This document shows, piece after piece, positions 1 through 40,896 of a stretch of 40,896 nt of DNA. A model generated the notes under the pieces. That model was not told where the DNA came from. It worked only from the letters and a program-made list of their open reading frames with translations, and made no database searches. The position numbers and the translations under genes were made by a program. The stretch is from a virus (Duplodnaviria; Heunggongvirae; Uroviricota; Caudoviricetes), in IMG/VR virus record IMGVR_UViG_3300015188_000003, positions 1-40,896 of that record; one strand, written 5' to 3'. Each line of letters starts with the position of its first letter. The stretch's first letter is position 1.

Positions 1-141
1 CTGTTGTTAGCGGCCCCCGACGCCTCCATCGGGGTGGGTTCGAATGTGATAGTTTCGCCGGTTTCCAGTGTCGCCGTAAGTTCCTGTAGCCCACGAACAA
101 GATAGTACGTCTTTGACAACAACGGGTGGCTGATTTGCAAC
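1..141. repeat. 141-bp terminal direct repeat, identical to 40756..40896 (circular-closure overlap)
   Basis: First and last 141 nt of the window are the same sequence. Confidence 0.95.
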
Positions 142-1619: not shown

Positions 1620-3931
1620 TATTTAAACCCCGGCGCGTTTCTTGTGGCCTTGCGGGCCTTGCTAATCTTACTGTTGCTGTTCTGCAAAGATGCAGCAACT
1701 TGCTCTTCTATGATGATACGCAGACGGCCTTCATCATCTTGCTCAGTGGACACGTTGCCAATCTGACTCGATGTATTATTTACAATGGTAACATTAGATG
1801 GGCCGGAAGAAGACCCGTTTTGCCCCATAATTTCTTTCATCTGCTGTGCGGTGCGTACACGTGACGCACCAGCGGGCATGATAACTTCTGGTTTACCACG
1901 TTCAGCGATGGTGGAAGCCTGCCCGGCTGATAACTGTCCGCCCTGTTCACGTGCGGACCTGATAGCGGAAATCTGCGCCATACCCGCCCCAACGGCAGCG
2001 GCGGCAGCTACAGGAGCCAGGAACGGACCAACTACAGGGATAGCCGCTGTGGACTTGTACGCCTCGATAGCCGCGGTGTACGTGGCGATAGTGGCCTGTA
2101 CGATAGCGAATGCCTTATACGCGCCAGAAGCCTCGCCCAAAGCCGAACCGATGTTTGAAGCCATGTTACCGAAGGCGGTTGCCGTTGCGTCGGCACGCTT
2201 CGTAGCATACTGCTCATTGATGGCGTTAAGCGCCGCCTGGTACTGCTTCTCACTAATAAGCCCCTGCTCACGGTACTTATCCGCTACCTCCAGTTTCTGC
2301 TGTTCCTGGATGTCGAGAAGCTCAAGCTCAGTAGCGTTCTGACCCATAATCTGTGCCATGAAGTCCTCGCCTTTCTGCTGCTTTTCCTGCTGCTCTTTTC
2401 TTTTCTTATCCAGTTCTTCCTGTCTGGCCTGCTCGGCTGTGAGCATAATTTGAGTTTTGGCGTTTTCATACTGCTGCTGGCTTATCGTTCCGGTGCGGTT
2501 GAACTCCTCCAGTTTCGCCAGTTTCTGTTCTTCCGCAGCGGTAATGCGCGAAATCTCATCTCCGGTTGTGCGGTCGACAGTAGCCAGGAAATCTTCCGCC
2601 GCTTTTTTCTGTCGTTCAGCCGCCGTTTCTTCGCGTTTGGCTTGTGCCGCCAGCCGTTTCTCGTTCGATTTGGCCTCGCGGTCGGCCTTCGCTTTTTCGG
2701 TAGCGTCGATGCGAGCGATGTCTTGTTGTGCTTCCGTGTCACGCGCAGCATTATACGCGGCGATCTGTTCTTTGGTGACAGCTTCACGTTTAGCGAACGC
2801 CTGCTTATCCAGTTCAGCTTGCGCACGGATACGCTCGCGGTCACTTAAGATAGCGATTTGCTGGTTTTTGACGATAGCTTCGTTCTGTTCCTGGAATCTC
2901 TGCGTTGTTGAGTTGACGTTACGACCAAGATTCTTTTGGGCCTCCGCCGCCGCGTTTGCGGACTTCTCCGCGTTCTCCAGTGCCGTGGCGTTCTTGTTGG
3001 CATTGTCGGTCAGGCGGATAAGTTCCGGGTTCAACTGTTTTGTATTACCGAGCCAGTCGGTAAACACATCGGCGATGCGACGGGCATTCTCGGCGGTTGG
3101 CTCTTTGTTAAACGCACTCTGCGCCGCTATCATCTCCAGCGCCTGGTCACGGTTAACCCCAAACTTACTGCTAAGCTCTGCGATATTCTGCGCCAGCATG
3201 TTGACGCCTACGATGTTACCCTCGTAAGTGCCACCGAGTTTTTCTAACGTGTCGCCTACATCCGCACCTTTAGAGACCAATGCATCGTACTGGCTGATAG
3301 CTGATGCTGTGGATGCCTTCCATGTCTCCCATGATTCTGCGTCCTCACGAACAGCTTTAGCTGTTTGCTGTGCGATAAGGTCCGCGTTAGCCTTAGCCAG
3401 CGCAAGCTGAGTCTCCGCCGCTTCTCTGCTGATTTGGGTAAGCTGGATAAGGCCGTCTGTCAGTTCGAGAGAGCCGGACGCCGTTTGCTGGAAAGTATCT
3501 TTTAGCTGTTTCTGTGCGGCTTCGAGGTCTTTTGAACTGCCTTCTGCTTCGGTTAACGATTTATACAGGACACCACCGATTGCTGACGCAAGAGCAATTA
3601 CGGCCCCAAGCACCGCGCCACCAGGGCCGAAAGCACCCGCAAGCTGAGAGCCTTGTTGCCCGATTGCTACGAATGCAGACGTGCCGGACTGCAACTGGAC
3701 GACCATGTCCTGCACCTGGAAGCCTACCTGCCCGGCGGCGTTACGGAATTTAGCGAAACCGTCAGAAGCCGCTTTAGACGTAGCGGAGTTTACTTTATTA
3801 ACATCCGGCGTTAGTTTGTTTACGGATGTGTCCGCACGGTCTGCGGATGCCGCCATAGCGTCAAGCTGTTTAGCGGCTACATCAGCGCCTTCTGTTTTTA
3901 CTCTGGCAATTAGGGAAGCCGTATCAGCCAT
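1619..3931 (-). CDS. tail tape measure protein
   Basis: Long Ala/Gln/Lys-rich coiled-coil ORF with Gly/Ala-rich hydrophobic segment, directly after G/G-T; ATG at 3931 with GAGGG SD (track start 3946 is TTG). Confidence 0.85.
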   Translation of the reverse strand: MADTASLIARVKTEGADVAAKQLDAMAASADRADTSVNKLTPDVNKVNSATSKAASDGFAKFRNAAGQVGFQVQDMVVQLQSGTSAFVAIGQQGSQLAGAFGPGGAVLGAVIALASAIGGVLYKSLTEAEGSSKDLEAAQKQLKDTFQQTASGSLELTDGLIQLTQISREAAETQLALAKANADLIAQQTAKAVREDAESWETWKASTASAISQYDALVSKGADVGDTLEKLGGTYEGNIVGVNMLAQNIAELSSKFGVNRDQALEMIAAQSAFNKEPTAENARRIADVFTDWLGNTKQLNPELIRLTDNANKNATALENAEKSANAAAEAQKNLGRNVNSTTQRFQEQNEAIVKNQQIAILSDRERIRAQAELDKQAFAKREAVTKEQIAAYNAARDTEAQQDIARIDATEKAKADREAKSNEKRLAAQAKREETAAERQKKAAEDFLATVDRTTGDEISRITAAEEQKLAKLEEFNRTGTISQQQYENAKTQIMLTAEQARQEELDKKRKEQQEKQQKGEDFMAQIMGQNATELELLDIQEQQKLEVADKYREQGLISEKQYQAALNAINEQYATKRADATATAFGNMASNIGSALGEASGAYKAFAIVQATIATYTAAIEAYKSTAAIPVVGPFLAPVAAAAAVGAGMAQISAIRSAREQGGQLSAGQASTIAERGKPEVIMPAGASRVRTAQQMKEIMGQNGSSSGPSNVTIVNNTSSQIGNVSTEQDDEGRLRIIIEEQVAASLQNSNSKISKARKATRNAPGFK

Positions 3932-4702
3932 CTTCTCTGCCCTCAAATATTCCGTCTAAGCCCATGATAACCTCGGCTTCGAACAAACTTATGCCGTAAC
4001 CGGCGACATCACGAAACGCTACCAAATCTTGCCATTTGAGCGCATCGCGCGGGATTATAACGATGGTATCATCTGTTTCGCGCTGTAGGAATTTAATGGC
4101 ACGGTATTTCTCGAACACGTCGATAAGAGAAACGGGGCATTCAGGCCCCGTCGTTTCTTTTATCTGCGGTTCTTTAATCACGCCCATTGCAATCAAAGCC
4201 GCCTGGTGGCCCGCCGCGATGTCGTCGAATTGCTTACGTTTGTGGCGGTCGACAAAGCACCATTGCGCAAATTCATACAGCGCTTTTACTTTTCCGAAAG
4301 TTTCTCGCGGCTATCGGTGTGGTGCTTAACTACGGCTTCTGCCAGTCCGCTGTACTGGTCAAACAGGTTAGCCAGCGCCTCTTTGCTGAACGGTTCGTCG
4401 AACGACCAACCGGTGACGATTTCCACGGCAAGCTGCTTGTTCAGGTCCATCACCCGCCAGCCCTTCTCATCATTATAACGCGCCCAGTTATTCAGTGCCT
4501 CGCACTCTTTATCTAAGGGCGCAAGTTCTTCCGTAAGGCGTCGAATTGCCGTTGTGTAGGCGCGGCCTGCACGAACACCCGCATCACAATCAGGGCCAAT
4601 GACCTGCAGCCATTCGCCGGAGTCTTTACCACTCGGCAGAAGGATAGGCATTTTAGTACCAGCAGCGTGGCGGTCGGCAAAATAAAAATCAGAAAGTTTC
4701 AT
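3924..4702 (-). CDS. tail assembly chaperone G-T fusion via programmed -1 frameshift (inferred)
   Basis: -1 frame is open from 4310 to 3924 and overlaps the last 8 codons of G; mRNA ends GAA-AAG-TAA where tRNA-Lys can slip AAG to AAA; T frame stops 8 nt inside the tape-measure start. Confidence 0.55.
4286..4702 (-). CDS. tail assembly chaperone (G-like)
   Basis: 138-aa ORF immediately upstream of tape measure; overlapping -1 frame open to 3924. Confidence 0.7.
   Translation of the reverse strand: MKLSDFYFADRHAAGTKMPILLPSGKDSGEWLQVIGPDCDAGVRAGRAYTTAIRRLTEELAPLDKECEALNNWARYNDEKGWRVMDLNKQLAVEIVTGWSFDEPFSKEALANLFDQYSGLAEAVVKHHTDSREKLSEK
4289..4295 (-). other. candidate -1 ribosomal slip site (mRNA G-GAA-AAG just before G stop)
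   Basis: Only position where G and T frames overlap with a Lys AAG/AAA slip option. Confidence 0.4.
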
Positions 4703-4809
4703 TCTTTAATCCTTTGGTTAAGAGGTTACAGGTTAAGGTTAATGCGCCAGACGGGAACCACCCGCTTTTCGTGTGCGACACTAGGCGCAAACTTATTCTA
4801 ACACACTAC

Positions 4810-4838
4810 TTGCGCGCCCCAATATAATAGGGTACTAT
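4810..4838 (+). promoter_or_regulatory. sigma70-like promoter TTGCGC-N17-TACTAT with embedded operator-like 18-mer (4824..4841)
   Basis: Near-identical to the block at 13046..13074; sits upstream of + gene 4867. Confidence 0.45.
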
Positions 4839-4866
4839 TCACCAGTAACTTACTGAGGGTATAATT

Positions 4867-5193
4867 ATGCGTAAATTAGTATTAGCTCTGGGGTTTATGT
4901 CTTTTGCTACTTTTGGAGCCCCGTGCGAACAGGTATTTAGTGAATCTGTTCTTATGACTTCTGGTGTGCTTGATAAAGCCGACCCTACTATTGTAAAGGC
5001 ATTTAAGGACTCCACAGTCCGTGAATGCGAGGCCGCCGTAGATGTCGGTAAATCGGGCCTACCTCCGCAAGCCGTAACATACACGGTAATACGTTCGGTA
5101 GAGAAAACCGGAGACGCGTTTTACAGCCTTCTGACAGCCACCCGTCTGCAAATGGTAATGACTGGATGGGCAATAGGCGCAGAAAGTAAATAG
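4867..5193 (+). CDS. secreted/periplasmic small protein (108 aa), function unknown
   Basis: N-terminal signal peptide MRKLVLALGFMSFATFGAP; GAGGG SD 7 nt upstream; AT-richer than flanking genes; opposite strand to surrounding tail genes. Confidence 0.75.
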   Translation: MRKLVLALGFMSFATFGAPCEQVFSESVLMTSGVLDKADPTIVKAFKDSTVRECEAAVDVGKSGLPPQAVTYTVIRSVEKTGDAFYSLLTATRLQMVMTGWAIGAESK

Positions 5194-5257
5194 TTGCCTT
5201 TATTTAAAGGAATCCACTGTGGTTAAATAGGACAAATCCTAAGCACGAGGAATAAGC

Positions 5258-6388
5258 ATGGCCCGGAAGAAAATAACCGACGAACAGTTACAGGAAGAAT
5301 TGAACGCCGGTATGAAGAATATCGACATCGCCCGTAAATACGGCATCTCAGACCGCGTTATTCGTATCCGTAAAGCGAAGCTGGCTAAGAAAGGCGTAGG
5401 CCACGGGCGCGACGTCAGCCACCTTGTGCCAGATGGCTACAAGATTAAAGGAACGTCGTCACTTGTGGACGAATACGGCAACACTAAGCTGCAATGGGTT
5501 AAGACCGACACCGATGCCGAACGTCAGGTCGAGTTGATGAAAGCCGTAATCGAGGGCATGAAGTCAGAGATTACGCCCGTTGCGCCTGTTAAAGCCGTTC
5601 GAGCCAAACGCGACGATAAACTGCTCAATCTTTACACTGTATCTGATTTCCATCTCGGTATGCTGGCGTGGGCCGACGAGAGCGGCGACGACTGGGACAT
5701 AAAGATTGCGGAAGACCTGTTCTCCCGCTGGTTCGATGCGGCGTTTAAGAAAGCACCGGACGCGGGGACAGGTGTTATTAACCTGCTGGGTGACCTTGCG
5801 CACTTCGATAGTCTGGATGCCGTTACACCAGCGAGTGGTCATATCCTTGACGCGGACACGCGCTACCAGAAACTTGTCCGCTACATGATTCGTATGGTAC
5901 GTCGTGTCGTTGATATGGCTCTTGTTAAGCATAAAACTGTTCGCTTGCTTATCGTGCAAGGGAACCACGACGAAAGCGGAATGATTTGGTTAGCTGAGAT
6001 GTTCAGTACGCTATACGACAACGAGCCTCGTGTGTTCGTCGATACGTCGCCGGATGTTTACAAGATGGTGCAACACGGCAAAACGACGTTGTTCTTCCAT
6101 CACGGGCATAAGGCACGCTTCGACGCTATCGAACCGGTTATGATTGCCAAGTTCCGCAAAGCGTTCGGTGAGAGTGTTTACAGCTACGCCCACGTAGGCC
6201 ACCTGCACCACCAGAAGATTGTAGAAAGCCGTAACATGATTGTTGAGCAACACCGCACCTTAGCGGCGAAAGACGCCTACGCCTCGCGCGGCGGATGGAT
6301 GTCTGGGCGTAGCGCAAACGTAATTACTTATAGCGCCGAATATGGCGAGGTCGCACGTTTAACTATTTCACCGGAGATGCTGGGATGA
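5258..6388 (+). CDS. HTH-domain protein fused to calcineurin-like metallophosphoesterase
   Basis: N-terminal HTH-like NIDIARKYGISDRVIRIRK; phosphoesterase motifs SDFHLG, GDLAHFD, GNHDE, HHGH, GHLHH; GAGGA SD. Confidence 0.8.
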   Translation: MARKKITDEQLQEELNAGMKNIDIARKYGISDRVIRIRKAKLAKKGVGHGRDVSHLVPDGYKIKGTSSLVDEYGNTKLQWVKTDTDAERQVELMKAVIEGMKSEITPVAPVKAVRAKRDDKLLNLYTVSDFHLGMLAWADESGDDWDIKIAEDLFSRWFDAAFKKAPDAGTGVINLLGDLAHFDSLDAVTPASGHILDADTRYQKLVRYMIRMVRRVVDMALVKHKTVRLLIVQGNHDESGMIWLAEMFSTLYDNEPRVFVDTSPDVYKMVQHGKTTLFFHHGHKARFDAIEPVMIAKFRKAFGESVYSYAHVGHLHHQKIVESRNMIVEQHRTLAAKDAYASRGGWMSGRSANVITYSAEYGEVARLTISPEMLG

Positions 6389-6615
6389 CTTCAAAATACA
6401 ACCGCACAATGACAAATACTCACGGCAGCACTATGACAGTAGACGTTTATGATGTGCTCCGCGCTTTCGACATCCGCGACCCGGCGTTACAGCACGCATT
6501 GAAGAAGCTATTGTGCATGGGTTTACGTGGACACAAGGACACCGGAACCGACTTAGCGGAAGCAATTGAAAGTCTGGAAAAGTTACGGGAGTACAGGAGT
6601 AACATTGATGAGTAA
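6385..6615 (+). CDS. hypothetical protein (76 aa)
   Basis: ATGA start/stop overlap with upstream gene; followed by terminator. Confidence 0.6.
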   Translation: MTSKYNRTMTNTHGSTMTVDVYDVLRAFDIRDPALQHALKKLLCMGLRGHKDTGTDLAEAIESLEKLREYRSNIDE

Positions 6616-6647
6616 TAAAAAAGGCCCCTTTCGGGGCCTTAGTTTTA
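6616..6647. terminator. bidirectional rho-independent terminator (AAGGCCCC-TTTC-GGGGCCTT flanked by A-run and T-run)
   Basis: Perfect 8-bp GC stem with U-tracts on both strands between convergent genes. Confidence 0.75.
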
Positions 6648-7811
6648 TGCGTAGGTGATACGCTGAATAACAATAGACGACTGGTACTGGTTGCCAGTAG
6701 CCTGGCCTTCAATGGACTGAGTGATTGACTCAGGTCCGCCAATCTCTGGGGTAACTGCCGTAAGCTCCGCACGTTTCAAACTGAAAGACATAGCCCCGTT
6801 TACCCCCGCCAGAATAGAGTTAATCTCTACCTGCTGCTCGTTGATAAACTTCTGAATCATCGCCATGTCATACAGCTTGCCGGAGATGGAGAAGGTGTTA
6901 GCCGCGCGGCTACGTTCTACAAACGCTACGTTAGTGTTGCCGAGTTCGAACTGCGCGGATGCGCTGTTGTCGTTGGTGATGGTCAGGCTGTCGCAACGCA
7001 ACGGCGTATAGCCGTCAAACACAGAAACGTCAACCGAGGAGAATGGCTCATCACCAAACGTGACAGAGGAGAAGTTGGAACCAGACGGCGGCGTAGTAAG
7101 AATCTCCTGGCTGCGCCCGATGAACGGGAAGCTACCTGTAACCATCGCGTTAACGGCCTGCTCAACGGTGAAACCGGAAACTTCCACACCTTTGGTTAGT
7201 GTGTATGCGTAAGTCCCGCCGCACTGTCCTTTGTACCAGGTGAGAATAGAGAACGTCTTACATGTGTTACCGGTTTCCAGCGTGTCGCCAGTTTTAGCCT
7301 TACTAGTTTTTGTCTCGGTGGTCAGGGTGTGTTGGATGCCTGCACCAGTAACAACGGTAGCCGTTACTGCGGTAACAATAAATGGTTTTGCGTTATCGCC
7401 TGTTAAGTCGGTAAACGCAATCAGGTCGCCTACCTCAACTCCGTCAGTGATAAAACTGCCGGTAGCGCGTGTGAACGTCTTGCCCGCGGGTGCGACGGTG
7501 ATCGATAGTCCTGGCAGAGAAACACCGGATTGCCACGTAGAGCCTAAAGCACCTGCCAACCAGTCATCCTGGCTTTTAGAGCTAAGCTCAATTGCGTATT
7601 CACCGCTAACCTGTTTGTTACCGGTGCGGATGGATGTAGTTTCACGGCTGCCGTCGAGTTCGTTGGAGGTCAGTGTGTCACGGGTAATGGCAGGAACACC
7701 GCCCGTGTTACGTAATGGTGACCAGACCGGGTTAGTCGGTGTTACACCCGGGGTCACTTCCGCCACATAGAATTGCGCGGTATTCGCGCCCTTAAAAGGA
7801 GTTGTAGCCAT
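6645..7811 (-). CDS. major tail protein (candidate)
   Basis: 388-aa ORF, last large gene before the chaperone position, followed by strong terminator; ATG at 7811 with AAGAGG SD (track start 7817 is GTG). Confidence 0.65.
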   Translation of the reverse strand: MATTPFKGANTAQFYVAEVTPGVTPTNPVWSPLRNTGGVPAITRDTLTSNELDGSRETTSIRTGNKQVSGEYAIELSSKSQDDWLAGALGSTWQSGVSLPGLSITVAPAGKTFTRATGSFITDGVEVGDLIAFTDLTGDNAKPFIVTAVTATVVTGAGIQHTLTTETKTSKAKTGDTLETGNTCKTFSILTWYKGQCGGTYAYTLTKGVEVSGFTVEQAVNAMVTGSFPFIGRSQEILTTPPSGSNFSSVTFGDEPFSSVDVSVFDGYTPLRCDSLTITNDNSASAQFELGNTNVAFVERSRAANTFSISGKLYDMAMIQKFINEQQVEINSILAGVNGAMSFSLKRAELTAVTPEIGGPESITQSIEGQATGNQYQSSIVIQRITYA

Positions 7812-7813
7812 AT

Positions 7814-8227
7814 TCACAGCCTCTTGGTGAATGCTATAAAGTTAATTGACAATGGCCGTTTGGCCCATCCGTTTTCTACAATCAGCGGCCCCAGGCTAAC
7901 CGATTGAACCTCGGCGCAGATGTCGTTACGTGAAAATGACTTACCTGCTTTAAACGCCGTGTTAAGTAAGTCTGCCATTTTATTGATTTCCGCGCTACCT
8001 TTCGCCGATGCGTAGTTAATGTCGACCTGATAAATACCAGAGCGTTGTTCCGTGAAGAACAAATCCGCCTGCTCGGTATCCGCCAGTAACATGTAACTTG
8101 CAAGATACGGCGTATCGGTTGACGTCGGCGCGTCGATGTTTTCAAGCGCGACTTTGATGCCGTTGGTGGTTCCGAAGGCCACCAGCGGCACATCAAACGC
8201 TTTGGTTAAGTCCTCAAAGTAGCCCAT
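7814..8227 (-). CDS. tail terminator / tail completion protein (position-based)
   Basis: 137-aa ORF immediately upstream of major tail gene. Confidence 0.55.
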   Translation of the reverse strand: MGYFEDLTKAFDVPLVAFGTTNGIKVALENIDAPTSTDTPYLASYMLLADTEQADLFFTEQRSGIYQVDINYASAKGSAEINKMADLLNTAFKAGKSFSRNDICAEVQSVSLGPLIVENGWAKRPLSINFIAFTKRL

Positions 8228-13045: not shown

Positions 13046-13074
13046 TTGCACACCCCAATATAATAGGGTACTAT
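13046..13074 (+). promoter_or_regulatory. sigma70-like promoter TTGCAC-N17-TACTAT with operator-like 18-mer (13060..13077)
   Basis: Same architecture as 4810..4838; precedes strong SD and + gene 13102. Confidence 0.45.
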
Positions 13075-13101
13075 TCAGTTAACTTAAACAGGAGGTGAAA
13101 A

Positions 13102-13305
13102 ATGTATGCAATTTGCGAAGTAGTTCAAGAGTTCGATGAAGAGTTCGACGGTGACTTGTGCCGGGTTAAAAAGGTTCTGCAGGTTTTCCCTGACGCAATG
13201 TCTGCTTACAAGGCATTAGATATATTTGAACCTGGAAGATACGGGGATTATGACACTGTTCTGAGGGTTGTCCATGAGCAGGATTTAAACACAAGATTCC
13301 GTTGA
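13102..13305 (+). CDS. small acidic protein (67 aa), accessory gene on opposite strand
   Basis: AGGAGGTG SD; own promoter and terminator; embedded between leftward head genes and spanins. Confidence 0.7.
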   Translation: MYAICEVVQEFDEEFDGDLCRVKKVLQVFPDAMSAYKALDIFEPGRYGDYDTVLRVVHEQDLNTRFR

Positions 13306-13335
13306 AAACTAAGGCCCCTTAATGGGGCCTTTTAT
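13306..13335. terminator. bidirectional terminator (AAGGCCCC-TTAAT-GGGGCCTT + T-run)
   Basis: GC hairpin between convergent genes. Confidence 0.7.
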
Positions 13336-22024: not shown

Positions 22025-22314
22025 TTATGTCTCCAGATGTATTGTCGTCTCTGTGGTTTCGTCGGAATATCATCGTACCCCAGCGATTTCCAGTAATTAA
22101 ATAGCCGGTTCGCGATAGCTGCGCGTTCCTTTGTTTTAAACTCACCGAGATTCACGGCCTTTCCGTTCTGGAATCCACAGGCGCGGATAGCTTTACGCCG
22201 TTCTTGTATCTCTGGGTACAGCACGTTACGGCGACGCTTGTGTATACGTGTCTTCGCTCTCGGTGACAGCGGCGCAAGGCCGCTTCGTTTCAGGATGTCA
22301 GTTGCTAACGACAT
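22021..22314 (-). CDS. small basic protein (97 aa) coupled to HslV-like gene
   Basis: Track ORF 22021..22359; likely ATG (MSLATDILKR) at 22314; ATGA overlap with downstream gene. Confidence 0.55.
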   Translation of the reverse strand: MSLATDILKRSGLAPLSPRAKTRIHKRRRNVLYPEIQERRKAIRACGFQNGKAVNLGEFKTKERAAIANRLFNYWKSLGYDDIPTKPQRRQYIWRHK

Positions 22315-22583
22315 CACTCCACCCCCTCCACATGTGTAACCGACCCGCAGTTCGCGCACTCGACGTAATCAGGGTACTGGTCTTTGTATTTCTGTAGCTC
22401 GGCGTTTACTTCTGCCAGTCTCGACACAAGCCCTTCTATTTCCTTGTCGGCGTCGGCTAGACGTTCCTGGTAATAGTCGTCCAGTTCCTTATAGCTGTCG
22501 TACTCTACATAATCGCCGTATGCGTACTCAGCCATCTCAGGCTCTGGCAGGCCCCACGCTTTTACCTCATATCTCTGTACCAT
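22314..22583 (-). CDS. hypothetical acidic early protein (89 aa)
   Basis: First gene after promoter 22613..22641. Confidence 0.6.
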   Translation of the reverse strand: MVQRYEVKAWGLPEPEMAEYAYGDYVEYDSYKELDDYYQERLADADKEIEGLVSRLAEVNAELQKYKDQYPDYVECANCGSVTHVEGVE

Positions 22584-23397: not shown

Positions 23398-23616
23398 TTA
23401 TTTAAAGTAGATAGCGAATTTCTTGTAACCCGCAGGCTCATTACGAAGCCCCTTACCGATAGCGAAACGTTGTACGTTGTTAAAATCGTTTCCATCCATA
23501 CCGTCGGTGCCGAACGTAAAGAAGTTGCGTTTGTTCCCGATAATTACGCGCTCTGAAATATCGATGCCGTAAACTTGTTTGATTGCGGAAACTACGCTTG
23601 CGGTCGCTTTGTTCAT
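23398..23616 (-). CDS. hypothetical early protein (72 aa)
   Basis: First gene downstream of promoter 23651..23679. Confidence 0.6.
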   Translation of the reverse strand: MNKATASVVSAIKQVYGIDISERVIIGNKRNFFTFGTDGMDGNDFNNVQRFAIGKGLRNEPAGYKKFAIYFK

Positions 23617-23650
23617 TTCTAAATTCCTTATGTCTCGTTTCGATAAGTGA

Positions 23651-26933: not shown

Positions 26934-26960
26934 GTAAAAAGAAAGGGGCATTAAGCCCCT
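26931..26960 (-). terminator. terminator for the regulator gene (AGGGGC-loop-GCCCCT + U-tract on - strand)
   Basis: Hairpin overlaps stop of 26951..27166. Confidence 0.6.
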
Positions 26961-27166
26961 TCACCGAACGCCAGCCACTTGGCGTCTACTTGTAGCACTT
27001 CCGCCAGCTTGAACAGCGTCGCCGGCCGGACGTCCTGAGTTACCCCGAGCGCAAGCTGGTTAATCGCGCCCTGGGAAACGCCAGCCAGGACCGCCAGACG
27101 GCGCTGGGAGATGCCGAGTTCTTTACGGCGTTGTTCTACGCGGATACCTAGTTCAGATGGTTGCAT
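26951..27166 (-). CDS. XRE/Cro-CI-type HTH transcriptional regulator (71 aa)
   Basis: LGISQRRLAVLAGVSQGAINQL helix-turn-helix; divergent from operator-bearing promoters. Confidence 0.8.
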   Translation of the reverse strand: MQPSELGIRVEQRRKELGISQRRLAVLAGVSQGAINQLALGVTQDVRPATLFKLAEVLQVDAKWLAFGEGA

Positions 27167-27230: not shown

Positions 27231-27259
27231 TTGACACGTGAATAGTTCGCTATTATAGT
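27231..27259 (+). promoter_or_regulatory. strong sigma70-like promoter TTGACA-N17-TATAGT with operator 18-mer in the spacer (27239..27256)
   Basis: Consensus -35, 17-bp spacer; operator occupies the spacer. Confidence 0.55.
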
Positions 27260-30244: not shown

Positions 30245-30261
30245 TATCTGAATCAATTTAA

Positions 30262-30288
30262 CTAAGGCCCTTCATTGGGCCTTTTTAC
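30262..30288 (+). terminator. rho-independent terminator (AAGGCCC-TTCATT-GGGCCTT + T-run)
   Basis: GC hairpin then TTTTT after stop at 30244. Confidence 0.65.
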
Positions 30289-35560: not shown

Positions 35561-35590
35561 GAAAAGGCCCCAAACGGGGCCTTAGTTTTA
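35561..35590. terminator. bidirectional terminator between replication block and tailspike (AAGGCCCC-AAAC-GGGGCCTT)
   Basis: Perfect 8-bp GC stem with A/T runs on both sides between convergent genes. Confidence 0.75.
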
Positions 35591-37525
35591 TGTTATTGAT
35601 GGAGTCTGACGCCAGTTAGTCCCGTCGAAGGTGTATTCAATTATATCCCCTCCGCCAAGATTTTTAGCAATATTAGCATTGTTGACAATACCGCCAATAC
35701 CCGGATTGTGGTTGAACACAACGGTATTAGCGGAGCCGTTACGAATGGCTAATCTGAACCCGGGGGACACAGGCTGCCCAATTACGTCATTAACGTTAAT
35801 ACTGCTATAAGAACTAGAAGCCGCTGCCGTGGTGATAAACACTGCTCCAGAATTGAATAATGAATCCCCGACAGTAAGGGCCTGCGCTGCTCCAGAAACC
35901 GTTACCTCTGTGTATCCAGGTCTGGGCTTGCCCGCGCCTAATACCTTAGCACGCACGCCGGATAGCCTGTTATTCGCATAGCTGTTCCCGAGCGTAAGCC
36001 CCGCAAATGCGGGCCCGTAATTCACCGCCAAATGAATATTAGACCCGACGAACAATCCAACACCACTGGAAACTTCAAAGGCAGTATCAACGGCGGCGGC
36101 ATTCGTGATTGAACCATAGAACCCATCAACGGTGAGTTGCTCGCAGAACCCAACTGAAGCTAGTTTGACACTGCTAACCGCTGATACACCATTAAGAGAC
36201 ACATTATACAGCTTACCAGAGGCCCCGCCATCGATGACAAAATCGGCGTAGGTAGCCCCACTATAGCTGACCCCGTTAACTACAATATCGTTAACAACCC
36301 CGGCAGTCGACCCGTTAATACGGCAGTTTATCGCGGAGCCTGTACTTTCAAGATTAGATACAAGAATGCGCTCCATTTGTGCTGTGGTAGCAATCAGCCA
36401 CACGCCCTGGCTGCAAACGCCGTTGCCTACGTTAACATGGCCCGTAACAACGACATTTTTGGCTGTACTGAATTCGGCGTCAGATTTGATAATCAGCCCG
36501 GTATCGCAGCTATAAGTTATAAGACCCTTAGCCACAACATTTCTACTTTTTATGGCAACACCGAACAGGTTATACGCGCCGGTAACATCAGAAATATGGG
36601 CGGCATCGTACCCCTCTACCAGACAGGCATGGAAAGCGTCAGTTGCTGCAAGACCAGCAGCTACTACATTTCTAACCCTAGCGCTAGCACCTGCCGCGTT
36701 ATCTGTTGACAACACCAGGGCGTCTCCTGGGGAGCCGGTAGGCCGCTTAAACCCCATGTTTTCAATTACAACTTGATTTCCAGAAAAACGCATGCCGCCG
36801 ATAATTCTGCTGCCGGATGTCATTGTATTTGTCGATGCGTTATAAAAAGGTACTTTATCGCCAATAATTGTAATGTTTTGAGTTACAGTCCCGCCTGTAT
36901 ACACATATGGTTTTGATGGGACCCTGAGGGGGATGTTATTGGAGGAACAGTACACAATAGCGTTAGTTATAGCGGTAGTGTCGTCAGTAGTGCCATCACC
37001 TACCGCGCCGAAATCATCGGGGGTCATATACCCTATTTTGAAATGATCAACCTCGCCCTGCACCGTGCGCCCCGAAGACGTACCAACTAACCCTGCACCA
37101 GTGCTTAGGGCCAAATCACGGCGCAATGCAGCTTCGCTAACGGCAACCCATGCGGTCTTACCTACTCCGCCCGTCGAGGCTGGCGTCGAAGATGCCGGGA
37201 TAGTTTTTGGCAGAGCACCCTTCCATGCATAATAGTTGCCGTCGCCTGATGGCCCAGGCCACAACACCGCCAGGTCAGCGTCGTTAACGCCCAACGTCCC
37301 ACCTGTTTCGAATGTGAAAGACGCAGGTCTGAACCCGGCGTCGCGCAACACGGCGGGGAGTGTCTTCTGCGTCTGCCCTGTAACCTGATTTGTTGCGTAA
37401 TCAATATCAGCACCAGTAGCAACACCACCGGATTTACCAGTAATAACCTCAGCTTCAAAAATCTGGTGCTTCTTGGCGGTCTGTAAATCCGCCAGGCTTA
37501 AAACGTCACCGCATCCGCTTGACAT
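35588..37525 (-). CDS. tailspike / receptor-binding protein (645 aa)
   Basis: Last gene of the tail operon; Gly/Asn/Ser/Thr/Val-rich repetitive body suggesting beta-helix. Confidence 0.6.
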   Translation of the reverse strand: MSSGCGDVLSLADLQTAKKHQIFEAEVITGKSGGVATGADIDYATNQVTGQTQKTLPAVLRDAGFRPASFTFETGGTLGVNDADLAVLWPGPSGDGNYYAWKGALPKTIPASSTPASTGGVGKTAWVAVSEAALRRDLALSTGAGLVGTSSGRTVQGEVDHFKIGYMTPDDFGAVGDGTTDDTTAITNAIVYCSSNNIPLRVPSKPYVYTGGTVTQNITIIGDKVPFYNASTNTMTSGSRIIGGMRFSGNQVVIENMGFKRPTGSPGDALVLSTDNAAGASARVRNVVAAGLAATDAFHACLVEGYDAAHISDVTGAYNLFGVAIKSRNVVAKGLITYSCDTGLIIKSDAEFSTAKNVVVTGHVNVGNGVCSQGVWLIATTAQMERILVSNLESTGSAINCRINGSTAGVVNDIVVNGVSYSGATYADFVIDGGASGKLYNVSLNGVSAVSSVKLASVGFCEQLTVDGFYGSITNAAAVDTAFEVSSGVGLFVGSNIHLAVNYGPAFAGLTLGNSYANNRLSGVRAKVLGAGKPRPGYTEVTVSGAAQALTVGDSLFNSGAVFITTAAASSSYSSINVNDVIGQPVSPGFRLAIRNGSANTVVFNHNPGIGGIVNNANIAKNLGGGDIIEYTFDGTNWRQTPSIT

Positions 37526-40461: not shown

Positions 40462-40896
40462 GTAGTCAACAGGCCGCGTAATAACGGTATCTCTTTAGGT
40501 GTCATCAGTATACCAGTGCTTCGTTGGTTCAGCATAGGTGTACCGACATCCGCAGAGAACTCGCCCTTCTCCTGGTTGATGGCCTGTAACTCGTACACGA
40601 CAGGGCCGTCCGCCGGATAAGACAGGTCGGTGCTGACGTAACGGCGAAATACGAACTTCGGCAACTCCGTATTGCCCATTGGGATTTTATCCATCTCATC
40701 ATCAAGTTGATTGAGGATATCCGGTAAAGTAAACGTGGTCGTCTGGTCCATATCACTGTTGTTAGCGGCCCCCGACGCCTCCATCGGGGTGGGTTCGAAT
40801 GTGATAGTTTCGCCGGTTTCCAGTGTCGCCGTAAGTTCCTGTAGCCCACGAACAAGATAGTACGTCTTTGACAACAACGGGTGGCTGATTTGCAAC
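40458..40896 (-). CDS. minor tail protein (L-like position), C-terminal part of the junction-spanning gene
   Basis: Track ORF 40458..40895 appears to start at the window edge (TTG); frame continues into 1..218; ATGA overlap with next gene at 40461. Confidence 0.6.
   Translation of the reverse strand, partial: LQISHPLLSKTYYLVRGLQELTATLETGETITFEPTPMEASGAANNSDMDQTTTFTLPDILNQLDDEMDKIPMGNTELPKFVFRRYVSTDLSYPADGPVVYELQAINQEKGEFSADVGTPMLNQRSTGILMTPKEIPLLRGLLTT
40756..40896. repeat. 141-bp terminal direct repeat, second copy
   Basis: Identical to 1..141. Confidence 0.95.

What the first reader, a model, noticed from the sequence alone, without database searches (positions are those of the whole stretch)
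4810..6647. Opposite-strand three-gene accessory island inserted between major tail and tail chaperone genes
Three + strand genes (a signal-peptide protein, an HTH-metallophosphoesterase and a 76-aa protein) interrupt an otherwise uniformly leftward virion module. The island opens with its own TTGCGC-N17-TACTAT promoter carrying the phage operator 18-mer and closes at a perfect bidirectional terminator. The first gene is visibly AT-richer than the flanking tail genes. None of the three products looks like a virion or replication protein, which is the layout of a moron/host-interaction or anti-defence cassette and the best candidate here for an undescribed system.
Basis: partly seen in the sequence, partly recalled or inferred. 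Interest (0 to 1): 0.8.

Follow-up and report, generated by a model that had tools for sequence, protein, structure and literature searches.

The report
Opposite-strand gene slot in tail operon
Three genes that read against the direction of a coliphage's tail genes are real, but they are a fixed feature of this phage subfamily: a widespread nuclease-type enzyme gene flanked by two swappable passenger genes, not a self-contained new defence or anti-defence system.

Summary
The window is a Kagunavirus (Guernseyvirinae) genome, about 92-93% identical to phages Bas73 and K1H.

Three + strand genes (108, 376 and 76 aa) lie between the tail-assembly chaperone and tail-tube genes. They have a conserved promoter carrying a palindromic operator and a bidirectional terminator.

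The block was present at this junction in all six Guernseyvirinae genomes I opened.

- **Central gene.** It encodes an N-terminal helix-turn-helix fused to a metallophosphoesterase with Mre11/SbcD-type motifs. It has backbone base composition, is under strong purifying selection, and has homologues in about 2,050 phage records. In T1-like phages it sits in the DNA-metabolism module.
- **First slot.** It holds either this lineage-restricted secreted 108-aa helical protein or a T4 Imm-type superinfection-immunity gene.
- **Third slot.** It holds the 76-aa protein, sometimes with an HNH endonuclease or a small ORF, or instead a HAD phosphatase plus a P-loop kinase.

The three genes are therefore not one system.

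Most likely reading: an operator-controlled transcription unit around a DNA-processing nuclease, with a probable superinfection-exclusion passenger gene. All functions are inferred. Structure prediction of the enzyme failed. Interest is modest.

The parts
4810..4838 (+). Island promoter, class A: -35 TTGCGC (4810-4815), 17-nt spacer, -10 TACTAT (4833-4838).
   Evidence: Sequence. The 32-nt element occurs 3 times against 0 expected. A fourth TTGCAC-N17-TACTAT copy lies at 22641-22613(-). Each copy is 56-64 nt upstream of an ATG. It is conserved in Bas73, K1H, NTEC3, fFiEco02 and Ent1. It falls below the consensus scan threshold. No transcript data.
4826..4839 (.). Palindromic operator AATAGGGTACTATT (AATAG-N4-CTATT), overlapping the -10 hexamer.
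   Evidence: 7 exact sites in the window against 0.03 expected. One site lies upstream of the island in each of 5 Guernseyvirinae loci, and none in the 14 other loci then held. K1H has 7 sites at matching positions.
4855..4859 (+). Shine-Dalgarno GAGGG, 7 nt before the ATG of gene 1.
   Evidence: Sequence.
4867..5193 (+). Gene 1: 108-aa secreted protein. It has an N-terminal signal peptide (MRKLVLALGFMSFATFG/APCE), two invariant cysteines (C20, C54) and an all-alpha mature domain. It is a probable envelope or superinfection-exclusion passenger gene.
5258..6388 (+). Gene 2: 376-aa protein with an N-terminal helix-turn-helix (about aa 8-45), a linker, and a metallophosphoesterase domain (about aa 120-376) carrying Mre11/SbcD-type motifs: D130-x-H132-L-G, G178-D179-x-x-H182, G235-N236-H237-D238, H281/H282, G314-H315-x-H317.
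   Evidence: phrog_704 'DNA repair exonuclease', full length, E 5.5e-166. Pfam Metallophos, Metallophos_2 and GerE all below threshold. Motifs are invariant in 10-12 diverse homologues. The only PDB profile hits are nucleases (T. maritima SbcD/Mre11, Nuclease MPE, Mre11), all non-significant. hhalign against E. coli SbcD gives E 0.0018 over motifs I-III. Homologues occur in 2,050 phage records. The AlphaFold model is unreliable except for the HTH.
6385..6615 (+). Gene 3: 76-aa helical protein. Its start overlaps the stop of gene 2 (ATGA), which suggests translational coupling. Conserved motif: SKYxR...VDVYDVLxAF...PAxQHALKKxLCxGxRGHKD...DLxEAIxS.
   Evidence: Matches the C-terminal part of longer PHROG families (phrog_2452 at 150-220 of 235; phrog_17613). 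It is the C-terminal domain of 182-193-aa proteins in Acinetobacter and Seuratvirus phages. 774 phage records. Absent from K1H. dN/dS 0-0.05.
6621..6640 (.). Bidirectional intrinsic terminator AAGGCCCC-TTTC-GGGGCCTT. It ends the island transcript and the convergent tube transcript. The + strand T-run overlaps the tube stop codon (6645-6647).
   Evidence: Called on both strands. Similar copies lie at 13305-13333, 30260-30287 and 35562-35592. Conserved in relatives.

Best explanation
The locus is a conserved, opposite-strand transcription unit in the gap between the tail-tube and tail-chaperone genes of Guernseyvirinae phages. It is a composite, not a three-part system.

**Transcription (inferred).** Host RNA polymerase starts at a weak sigma-70-type promoter (TTGCGC-N17-TACTAT). 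Its -10 hexamer is overlapped by the phage-wide palindrome AATAG-N4-CTATT. The likely binder is the phage's 71-aa XRE-type repressor encoded at 26951-27166. Transcription stops at the bidirectional terminator shared with the convergent tube gene.

**Gene 2, the constant core (inferred).** It is a DNA-binding helix-turn-helix fused to a di-metal phosphoesterase of the Mre11/SbcD nuclease type. No SMC-like ATPase partner is encoded or annotated nearby. It most likely binds DNA through the HTH and cuts or trims it. The purpose could be host-DNA breakdown with nucleotide salvage, or DNA-end processing for replication and recombination. In related phages it sits in the DNA-metabolism module, in several directly beside a HAD phosphatase and a dNMP-kinase-like P-loop kinase.

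**Gene 1, a passenger (inferred from position only).** The 108-aa protein is exported to the periplasm as a small, probably disulfide-stabilised helical bundle. It occupies the slot that most relatives fill with a T4 Imm-type superinfection-immunity protein. It therefore most likely protects the infected cell envelope against secondary infection.

**Gene 3, a dispensable passenger (function not established).** It is a small helical protein, probably translationally coupled to gene 2, and may act in nucleic-acid or nucleotide metabolism.

**Shown:** anatomy, conservation, slot swapping, catalytic-motif integrity and purifying selection.
**Inferred:** all biochemical activities, expression timing and targets.
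For: **Anatomy and signals:**

**Fixed position.** The block is at the tube/chaperone junction in Bas73, K1H, NTEC3, fFiEco02 and Ent1. The outgroup Shewanella phage 3/49 (tube 63% identical) also has two opposite-strand genes in the same gap, but different ones.

**Slot 1 alternation.**
- Ent1 ORF24 is Pfam Imm_superinfect, E 2e-15.
- About 350 records carry that Imm at 60% identity or more, and 99 carry the 108-aa gene. About 494 records carry a tube protein at 60% identity or more.
- Both forms occur in both genera: phiEc3 has imm abutting the esterase, and Jersey and ER1 have the 108-aa gene.
- The window has no Imm.

**Slot 3 alternation:**

**Gene 2 as a core gene.**
- Homologues in 2,050 phage records.
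- Found in the DNA-metabolism module of T1, tuinn and MezzoGao.
- Backbone GC and GC3 and dN/dS 0.02-0.09.
- Catalytic motifs invariant.
- Motif I reads SDFHLG, against SDWHLG in SbcD. hhalign against SbcD gives E 0.0018 over 82 columns.
- All 8 marginal PDB profile hits are MPE nucleases.
- A distant homologue in Streptococcus phage Javan271 lies next to Erf and a Holliday-junction resolvase.

**HTH.** It is modelled with pLDDT 66-83 and hits the HTH_23, HTH_28, Sigma70_r4_2 and GerE families weakly.

**Gene 1 export.** Signal peptide, two invariant cysteines and a confident helical model.
Against: - No experimental data exist for any of the three proteins.
- Every match of gene 2 to a solved nuclease is statistically non-significant (E 0.28-2.2; hhalign probability 15%). 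Its Pfam scores are below the gathering thresholds.
- The structure model of gene 2 failed (pLDDT 43), so the fold subclass is untested.
- The phage already encodes a separate exonuclease in its replication module (K1H gp38), so the need for a second nuclease is unexplained.
- The superinfection-exclusion role of gene 1 rests only on positional equivalence. It shares no sequence or topology with Imm, and its fold has no informative match.
- The timing of transcription is unknown. The only transcriptome of a relative (PMC12645636) classes the Imm gene in this slot as late but is coarse.
Confidence: 0.5

Rival explanations
1. The three genes form one accessory moron or anti-defence cassette that is variably present and acts as a unit against host immunity.
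For: The block has its own promoter and terminator and lies on the opposite strand inside the virion module. Gene 1 is compositionally shifted and lineage-restricted. Genes 2 and 3 overlap by ATGA.
Against: - The block was present in every Guernseyvirinae genome opened.
- Gene 2 has homologues in about 2,050 phage records and has backbone composition.
- Genes 1 and 3 are each replaced independently of gene 2.
- Gene 3 occurs away from gene 2 in other phages.
- There are no PADLOC matches.
Confidence: 0.08
2. Gene 2 is mainly a transcription regulator, for example of late or lysis genes. The esterase domain would sense or destroy a small-molecule signal.
For: - The N-terminal HTH resembles the sigma-70 region 4 and LuxR/GerE type.
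- There is a weak match to phrog_836 'late transcriptional activator'.
- In tuinn, MezzoGao, T1, RcMcLean, Vibrio 92E46-1, Sulfitobacter pCB2047-A and EC115 the gene lies next to the holin or endolysin genes.
Against: - All catalytic metal ligands are strictly conserved, and the motifs are of the nuclease type.
- No shared palindrome or operator was found between gene 2 and the lysis genes in T1-like loci.
- The Guernseyvirinae operator has a better candidate binder, the 71-aa XRE protein next to a class B promoter.
Confidence: 0.12
3. Gene 2 is part of a nucleic-acid end-healing or repair pathway. As a 2',3'-cyclic or 3'-phosphoesterase, it would work with a 3'-phosphatase and a 5'-kinase to mend breaks in tRNA or DNA made by host nucleases.
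For: In K1H, MezzoGao and Vibrio JSF38, gene 2 is directly followed by a HAD phosphatase of the PNKP type (PF25109, E 7e-20 and 2e-15). In K1H and MezzoGao a P-loop kinase follows that. From memory, bacterial Pnkp joins a kinase with a calcineurin-type esterase.
Against: - The window phage and most relatives lack the phosphatase and kinase.
- In T1 those genes are far from gene 2.
- The kinase P-loop reads GKDT, as I recall for dNMP kinases, and MezzoGao annotates it as a dNMP kinase.
- No ligase is annotated in K1H.
- The HTH has no obvious role in this scheme.
Confidence: 0.12
4. Gene 2 is an anti-defence phosphodiesterase that degrades immune signalling nucleotides, or a lambda-type protein phosphatase.
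For: It belongs to the metallophosphoesterase superfamily. In Aeromonas phage Avpx2 the gene lies after a ninD-like gene, which recalls the position of lambda NinI.
Against: - hhalign against lambda NinI aligns only 10 columns (probability 0.8%).
- No phosphatase or cyclic-nucleotide phosphodiesterase appears among the PDB profile hits.
- A DNA-binding HTH and near-universal conservation fit a housekeeping DNA function better.
- Kagunavirus phages show no notable defence resistance in the BASEL phenotyping (PMC11990801).
Confidence: 0.08

Closest known systems
Mre11/SbcD nucleases (E. coli SbcD, T4 gp47) and the stand-alone Pseudomonas putida 'Nuclease MPE' (PDB 6NVO)
   Same: Gene 2 has the five-motif di-metal centre with the nuclease-type forms: SDFHLG against SDWHLG, GDLAH against GDVFD or GDFLH, GNHDES, and GHLHH. 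These were the only kinds of solved protein picked up by profile search.
   Different: - No SMC-like ATPase partner is encoded in the island or annotated in K1H.
- It carries an N-terminal HTH and a roughly 70-aa linker.
- It has a family-specific insert, TPxSGHxLDxDxR, between motifs II and III.
- The similarity is not statistically significant, and the fold and activity are untested.
T4 Imm / Pfam Imm_superinfect (PF14373), as carried by Ent1 ORF24
   Same: It occupies exactly the same slot: first gene after the same operator-bearing promoter and directly upstream of gene 2. It is a small envelope-targeted protein.
   Different: There is no sequence similarity. The Ent1 Imm is a 59-aa, largely hydrophobic protein. 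Gene 1 has a signal peptide and a soluble-looking helical bundle with two conserved cysteines. Its function is untested.
Superinfection-exclusion genes embedded in siphovirus tail modules (T1 Cor; from memory, HK97 gp15 and T5 Llp)
   Same: A small envelope protein gene inside or beside the tail genes. T1 cor is also on the opposite strand. Each has its own signals.
   Different: There is no homology. From memory, Cor and Llp are lipoproteins, and gene 1 has no lipobox. Here the passenger gene shares its transcript with a conserved enzyme gene.
T7 gp1.7 C-terminal domain / DUF3310 (SaV-like)
   Same: Gene 3 is a roughly 60-aa helical domain with a similar motif pattern: SKY/SHY, VDVYDVL/IEAIEVI, ALKKLL..G.RGHK/ILKYRLRAGKK, DLAEA/DLAKA. 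Like DUF3310, it is also found as the C-terminal domain of 180-250-aa phage proteins. phrog_23238 pairs an N-terminal region shared with Acinetobacter gp14 with a C-terminal region matched by the DUF3310 part of T7 gp1.7, whereas gp14 itself ends in the gene 3 type domain. One GenBank record labels the gene DUF3310.
   Different: The Pfam DUF3310 model does not match gene 3 or its relatives. hhalign against T7 gp1.7 gives probability 0.35%. Homology is not established.
T5 pre-early A1 (esterase-motif protein needed for host DNA degradation) with the A2 DNA-binding protein
   Same: The concept is the same: an esterase-type protein working with an HTH DNA-binding partner. This is a lead from the T5 record's notes and from memory.
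   Different: hhalign aligns only 20 columns around GNHD/SNHD (probability 5.7%), and A2 does not match the HTH. The resemblance is not supported beyond the superfamily motif.

Membership tests
Calcineurin-like metallophosphoesterase superfamily | Five metal-binding motifs: DxH, GD, GNH(D/E), H, GHxH. | tested here: met
   D130/H132, G178/D179, G235/N236/H237, H282 and G314/H315/H317 are invariant in 10 homologues down to 25% identity; most stay invariant when two 21%-identical homologues are added.
Calcineurin-like metallophosphoesterase superfamily | Score above the Pfam gathering threshold for Metallophos or Metallophos_2. | tested here: not met
   18.8 bits against a cutoff of 21.5, and 21.6 bits against 27. 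6 of 10 homologues hit Metallophos at E of 0.05 or better (best 7.8e-4). This is a divergent member.
Mre11/SbcD nuclease family | Nuclease-type motif forms (DxHLG, GDxxH/D, GNHD, GHxH) and significant profile similarity. | tested here: inconclusive
   The motif forms match. hhalign against E. coli SbcD gives E 0.0018, probability 15%, over 82 columns. PDB profile hits to SbcD/Mre11 and Nuclease MPE have E 0.28-2.2.
Mre11/SbcD nuclease family | An adjacent Rad50/SbcC-type SMC ATPase partner. | tested here: not met
   No such gene is in the island or in the annotated K1H genome. The P-loop protein of K1H is a 184-aa kinase-like protein.
Mre11/SbcD nuclease family | Nuclease fold with capping domain, and Mn-dependent DNase activity. 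| not testable with these tools
   The AlphaFold model has pLDDT 43 because only near-identical sequences could be supplied. No biochemistry is available.
Moron (passenger transcription unit in a phage late operon) | Own promoter and terminator. | tested here: met
   A conserved promoter element and a bidirectional terminator are present, both predicted only.
Moron (passenger transcription unit in a phage late operon) | Composition different from the neighbouring genes. | tested here: inconclusive
   Met for gene 1 (GC3 0.40 against 0.56-0.60). Not met for gene 2 (GC3 0.605). Gene 3 is close to its neighbours (GC3 0.558, GC 0.472).
Moron (passenger transcription unit in a phage late operon) | Present in some close relatives and absent from others. 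| tested here: not met
   The unit and gene 2 are present in all six Guernseyvirinae genomes examined. Only genes 1 and 3 vary, and they vary by replacement.
Imm_superinfect (PF14373), for gene 1 | Sequence match to the family model. | tested here: not met
   No Pfam hit. tblastn of Ent1 Imm against the window gives E above 2. Only the genomic position is shared.
DUF3310 / SaV-like (PF11753), for gene 3 | Sequence or profile match to the family. | tested here: not met
   No Pfam hit for gene 3 or for 11 relatives. hhalign against T7 gp1.7 gives probability 0.35%. The resemblance is at motif level only.
Known anti-phage defence system proteins (PADLOC-DB 2.0) | Match to any model. | tested here: not met
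   No family at E of 0.01 or better for the three proteins, for orf67, or for the two alternative proteins of K1H.

The most novel reading that the evidence does not exclude
Two parts of the locus could be new biology.

- **Gene 1** could found a new family of periplasmic superinfection-exclusion proteins that functionally replaces Imm in about a fifth of Guernseyvirinae.
- **Gene 2** could be a Rad50-independent, HTH-guided Mre11-like nuclease with homologues in roughly 2,000 phage records, most of those opened being small siphoviruses. It could carry out host-chromosome degradation. From memory, that function was mapped genetically in T1 and has not been assigned to a gene.
Probability: 0.2. 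Interest if true: 0.5.

Novelty: new member of a known kind. Interest (0 to 1): 0.3.

Why it matters
- **Gene 2.** If it is shown to be a nuclease, a gene with homologues in about 2,000 phage records, including phages considered for therapy, would get a function. It is currently labelled 'hypothetical' or 'DNA repair exonuclease'.
- **Gene 1.** If it excludes superinfecting phages, that matters for designing phage cocktails from Kagunavirus and Jerseyvirus isolates. It would also add a soluble periplasmic type to the known exclusion proteins.
- **The tube/chaperone gap.** It is a natural, tolerated insertion site with its own promoter and terminator. Small Kagunavirus genomes are already used for engineering, so the site could be useful for that.
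- **What it does not show.** None of this amounts to a new kind of system.

Tried and rejected
- **Structure of gene 2.** The job accepted only window sequences and near-identical database hits (96-99% identity). The model has pLDDT 43 and was not used for fold search.
- **Gene 2 against solved structures by sequence.** The single sequence found only a FixJ HTH at E 1.5. Profiles of 10 and 12 homologues gave only marginal hits. Two distant homologues alone gave nothing.
- **hhalign of the gene 2 profile.** Comparison with T5 A1, T5 A2, lambda NinI and lambda NinH aligned only short motif-level stretches. I rejected a NinH-NinI fusion idea and membership of an A1/A2 family.
- **Gene 3 against DUF3310.** Pfam and hhalign were both negative. 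It is kept only as a lead.
- **HTH of gene 2 binding the phage operator.** The palindrome is absent from the T1-like and other loci that carry gene 2. No palindrome precedes their lysis genes. A dedicated XRE protein is the better candidate.
- **Literature.** I found no functional study of these genes. A Kagunavirus transcriptome (PMC12645636) is too coarse to time the island.
- **Rfam.** No known RNA family in the window.
Full report
**What the window is**

The region 4300-7000 matches 309 phage records by megablast. The best matches are Kagunavirus phages of the subfamily Guernseyvirinae: Bas73 at 93.5%, and K1H, NTEC3 and fFiEco02 at 91-93%. The first and last 141 nt of the window are identical, which fits a circularly permuted genome written out with a short overlap.

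Yes.
- Three + strand ORFs lie at 4867-5193 (108 aa), 5258-6388 (376 aa) and 6385-6615 (76 aa).
- To the left are the leftward tail-assembly chaperone (4286-4702, with its frameshift extension 3924-4196) and the tape-measure gene.
- To the right is the leftward tail tube gene (6645-7817).
- All three genes are under strong purifying selection against four Kagunavirus relatives and Ent1 (dN/dS 0.02-0.10). They are therefore real coding genes.

**Signals**

By consensus it is weak: the scan did not list it, and promoter-like sites in the region are no commoner than chance. It is nonetheless part of a 32-nt element found three times in the window against none expected. A fourth TTGCAC-N17-TACTAT copy lies at 22641-22613 on the - strand. 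Every copy sits 56-64 nt upstream of a start codon:
- the island;
- a second + strand single-gene unit, orf67 (13102-13305), which has its own bidirectional terminator;
- the first ORF of the long leftward block (23398-23616);
- an ORF at 22314-22583. In K1H the corresponding stretch runs on into the holin, endolysin and virion genes.

*Operator.* All four copies contain the palindrome AATAG-N4-CTATT over the -10 hexamer. The same palindrome sits in the spacer of three near-consensus promoters (TTGACA-N17-TATAGT) that head the rightward replication genes. That makes 7 exact sites against 0.03 expected. K1H has 7 sites at matching places. Each of the five Guernseyvirinae loci has one site upstream of the island, and none of the 14 other loci then held has any. 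A plausible binder is the 71-aa XRE-type HTH protein at 26951-27166, which diverges from one of these promoters.

*Terminator.* The terminator at 6621-6640 is called on both strands. Its + strand T-run overlaps the tube stop codon.

**Is the island variably present?**

No. The block lies at the same junction in Bas73, K1H, NTEC3, fFiEco02 and the Jerseyvirus Ent1.

The outgroup Shewanella phage 3/49 (tube 63% identical) also has two opposite-strand genes in the tube-chaperone gap. They are unrelated small genes, and no esterase is annotated there. A more distant Vibrio phage has no insertion. The gap is therefore an old docking site, and what varies is its cargo.

- **Slot 1.** It holds either the 108-aa gene (99 records) or a 59-aa Imm_superinfect protein (Pfam E 2e-15; about 350 records at 60% identity or more). 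About 494 records carry a tube protein at 60% identity or more. Both forms occur in both genera. The window has no Imm.
- **Slot 3.** It holds one of the following:
  - the 76-aa gene alone (window, Bas73);
  - an HNH endonuclease plus the 76-aa gene (NTEC3, Ent1);
  - a 66-aa ORF plus the 76-aa gene (fFiEco02);
  - in K1H, a HAD phosphatase of the PNKP type (PF25109, E 7e-20) plus a P-loop kinase, instead of the 76-aa gene. K1H lacks the 76-aa gene altogether.
- **Extra cargo.** Ent1 adds a Rha/KilAC anti-repressor-like gene with its own terminators.

Only the central gene is constant.

**Gene 2**

*Family and motifs.* It matches phrog_704 ('DNA repair exonuclease') over its full length (E 5.5e-166). 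Its Pfam hits to Metallophos, Metallophos_2 and GerE are all below threshold. In an alignment of ten homologues down to 25% identity, the metal-binding motifs are invariant. So is a family-specific TPxSGHxLDxDxR segment between motifs II and III.

*Which kind of esterase.* The motif forms are those of Mre11/SbcD nucleases:
- hhalign against E. coli SbcD aligns motifs I-III over 82 columns: SDFHLG with SDWHLG, GDLAH with GDVFD, and GNHDES with GNHDSV (E 0.0018, probability 15%).
- The only solved proteins reached by a 12-sequence profile are T. maritima SbcD/Mre11, P. putida Nuclease MPE and archaeal Mre11, all at non-significant E-values.
- Lambda phosphatase NinI and T5 A1 align only at GNH.

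*HTH and structure.* The N-terminal 45 residues form a three-helix HTH (pLDDT 66-83). Their weak family matches are to HTH_23, HTH_28, Sigma70_r4_2 and GerE. The rest of the model is unreliable (mean pLDDT 43), because only near-identical sequences could be supplied.

*Distribution and context.*
- Homologues occur in 2,050 phage records.
- In T1, tuinn and MezzoGao the gene follows the helicase, VRR-NUC and Dam genes and precedes the lysis genes. In MezzoGao, K1H and Vibrio JSF38 it is directly followed by the HAD phosphatase, and in the first two by the kinase as well.
- A distant homologue in a Streptococcus prophage lies beside Erf and a Holliday-junction resolvase.
- Its GC and GC3 match the backbone.

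*Horizontal exchange.* The window protein is 76% identical to that of Dhillonvirus EC115 but only 55% identical to that of Ent1. The gene therefore moves between phage families.

I read it as a stand-alone, HTH-tethered nuclease of DNA metabolism. Its exact substrate is unknown.

**Gene 1**

- It has a typical signal peptide, no lipobox, two invariant cysteines and a conserved C-terminal helix.
- The model is confident (pLDDT 83, and above 90 for most of the mature part) and entirely helical.
- It occurs in only 22 sequence clusters among 5.8 billion proteins, all on Guernseyvirinae-like contigs.
- Its GC3 (0.40) is well below that of its neighbours.

The only functional clue is that it alternates with Imm in the same slot. 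I therefore propose an envelope-protection or superinfection-exclusion role, with low confidence.

**Gene 3**

- It is a small helical protein with a strongly conserved motif, found in 774 phage records.
- In Acinetobacter and Seuratvirus phages it is the C-terminal domain of 182-193-aa proteins. In the Seuratvirus that gene lies inside a 7-deazaguanine gene cluster.
- In Shewanella phage 3/49 it sits in the early region.
- It resembles DUF3310, the C-terminal domain of the T7 nucleotide kinase gp1.7, at motif level and in its domain-swap pattern. Pfam and hhalign do not support homology.
- Its function remains open.

**Verdict**

The anatomy is confirmed. The idea of a three-gene accessory or anti-defence system is not supported. 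The locus is a fixed opposite-strand transcription unit built round a widespread nuclease-type gene, with two slots that exchange passenger genes. This is ordinary phage mosaicism with two uncharacterised protein families, which makes it a new member of a known kind. No PADLOC model matches, and no Rfam family is present in the window.

**Limits**

- No experimental data exist for any of the three proteins.
- The structure prediction for gene 2 failed.
- The large representative search and the afdb50 fold library were unavailable.
- The record counts per slot come from identity bands of separate searches, not from a genome-by-genome table.

Noticed in passing
window 4743-4789: A non-coding element between the chaperone start and the island promoter is nearly invariant in five Kagunavirus phages and in Jerseyvirus Ent1, although the flanking coding DNA diverges. 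The consensus fold has an outer stem (GCGCC/GGCGC) enclosing two hairpins. Two pairs show compensatory double changes in Ent1 (GTGT..ACAC to CGGT..ACCG). There is no Rfam match. It may be the 5' leader of a leftward chaperone/tape-measure mRNA started from a conserved extended -10 site, TGT-TAGAAT (reverse complement of 4795-4803).
   Followed up: partly
window 13046-13333: A second opposite-strand mini-unit lies inside the head-gene region. It has the same class A promoter (13046-13077), a 67-aa ORF (13102-13305; GC3 0.43; only a weak phrog_27256 match) and its own bidirectional terminator (13305-13333). K1H keeps the palindrome-bearing element (at 4489 in its record) but has no homologue of the ORF.
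   Followed up: partly
window 4826, 13062, 22612, 23650, 27241, 29541, 32974: There is a phage-wide regulatory palindrome, AATAG-N4-CTATT, with 7 sites against 0.03 expected. It appears in two promoter classes: class A (TTGCRC-N17-TACTAT, palindrome over the -10) and class B (TTGACA-N17-TATAGT, palindrome in the spacer). At 23650 the site could serve divergent promoters.
   Followed up: partly
window 26951-27166 (-): A 71-aa XRE-type HTH protein, 97% identical to K1H gp41, is encoded divergently from the class B promoter at 27231. It is the most likely binder of the palindromic operator.
   Followed up: no
window 1-141 and 40756-40896: The two ends of the window are 141 nt of identical sequence. 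This fits a circularly permuted or circular genome record written with an overlap.
   Followed up: no
window 5258-6388 versus L006 (EC115) and L007 (Ent1): The esterase is 76% identical to that of Dhillonvirus EC115, a different group where the gene sits at the genome end after the lysin. It is only 55% identical to that of Jerseyvirus Ent1, while other Jerseyvirus phages carry an 88% allele. This indicates exchange of the gene across phage groups.
   Followed up: no
L007 5023-5694 (Ent1) and L004 4535-5167 (fFiEco02): Further cargo lies between the island terminator and the tube gene in some relatives. Ent1 has a Rha/KilAC anti-repressor-like gene with its own terminators. fFiEco02 has an HNH-like gene on the tube strand.
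   Followed up: no
L015 2135-2683 (Seuratvirus KurtStettler bas22_0042): A 182-aa protein ending in the gene 3 type domain is encoded inside the 7-deazaguanine DNA-modification cluster, between the preQ0 transporter and QueD genes. This hints at a nucleotide-related role for the domain.
   Followed up: no
phage database hits: Records named Campylobacter phage (59 records) and Acinetobacter phage NJ01 carry esterase genes 45-76% identical to coliphage versions. These look like T1-like or Dhillonvirus-like genomes under unexpected host labels, so mislabelling or contamination is possible.
   Followed up: no
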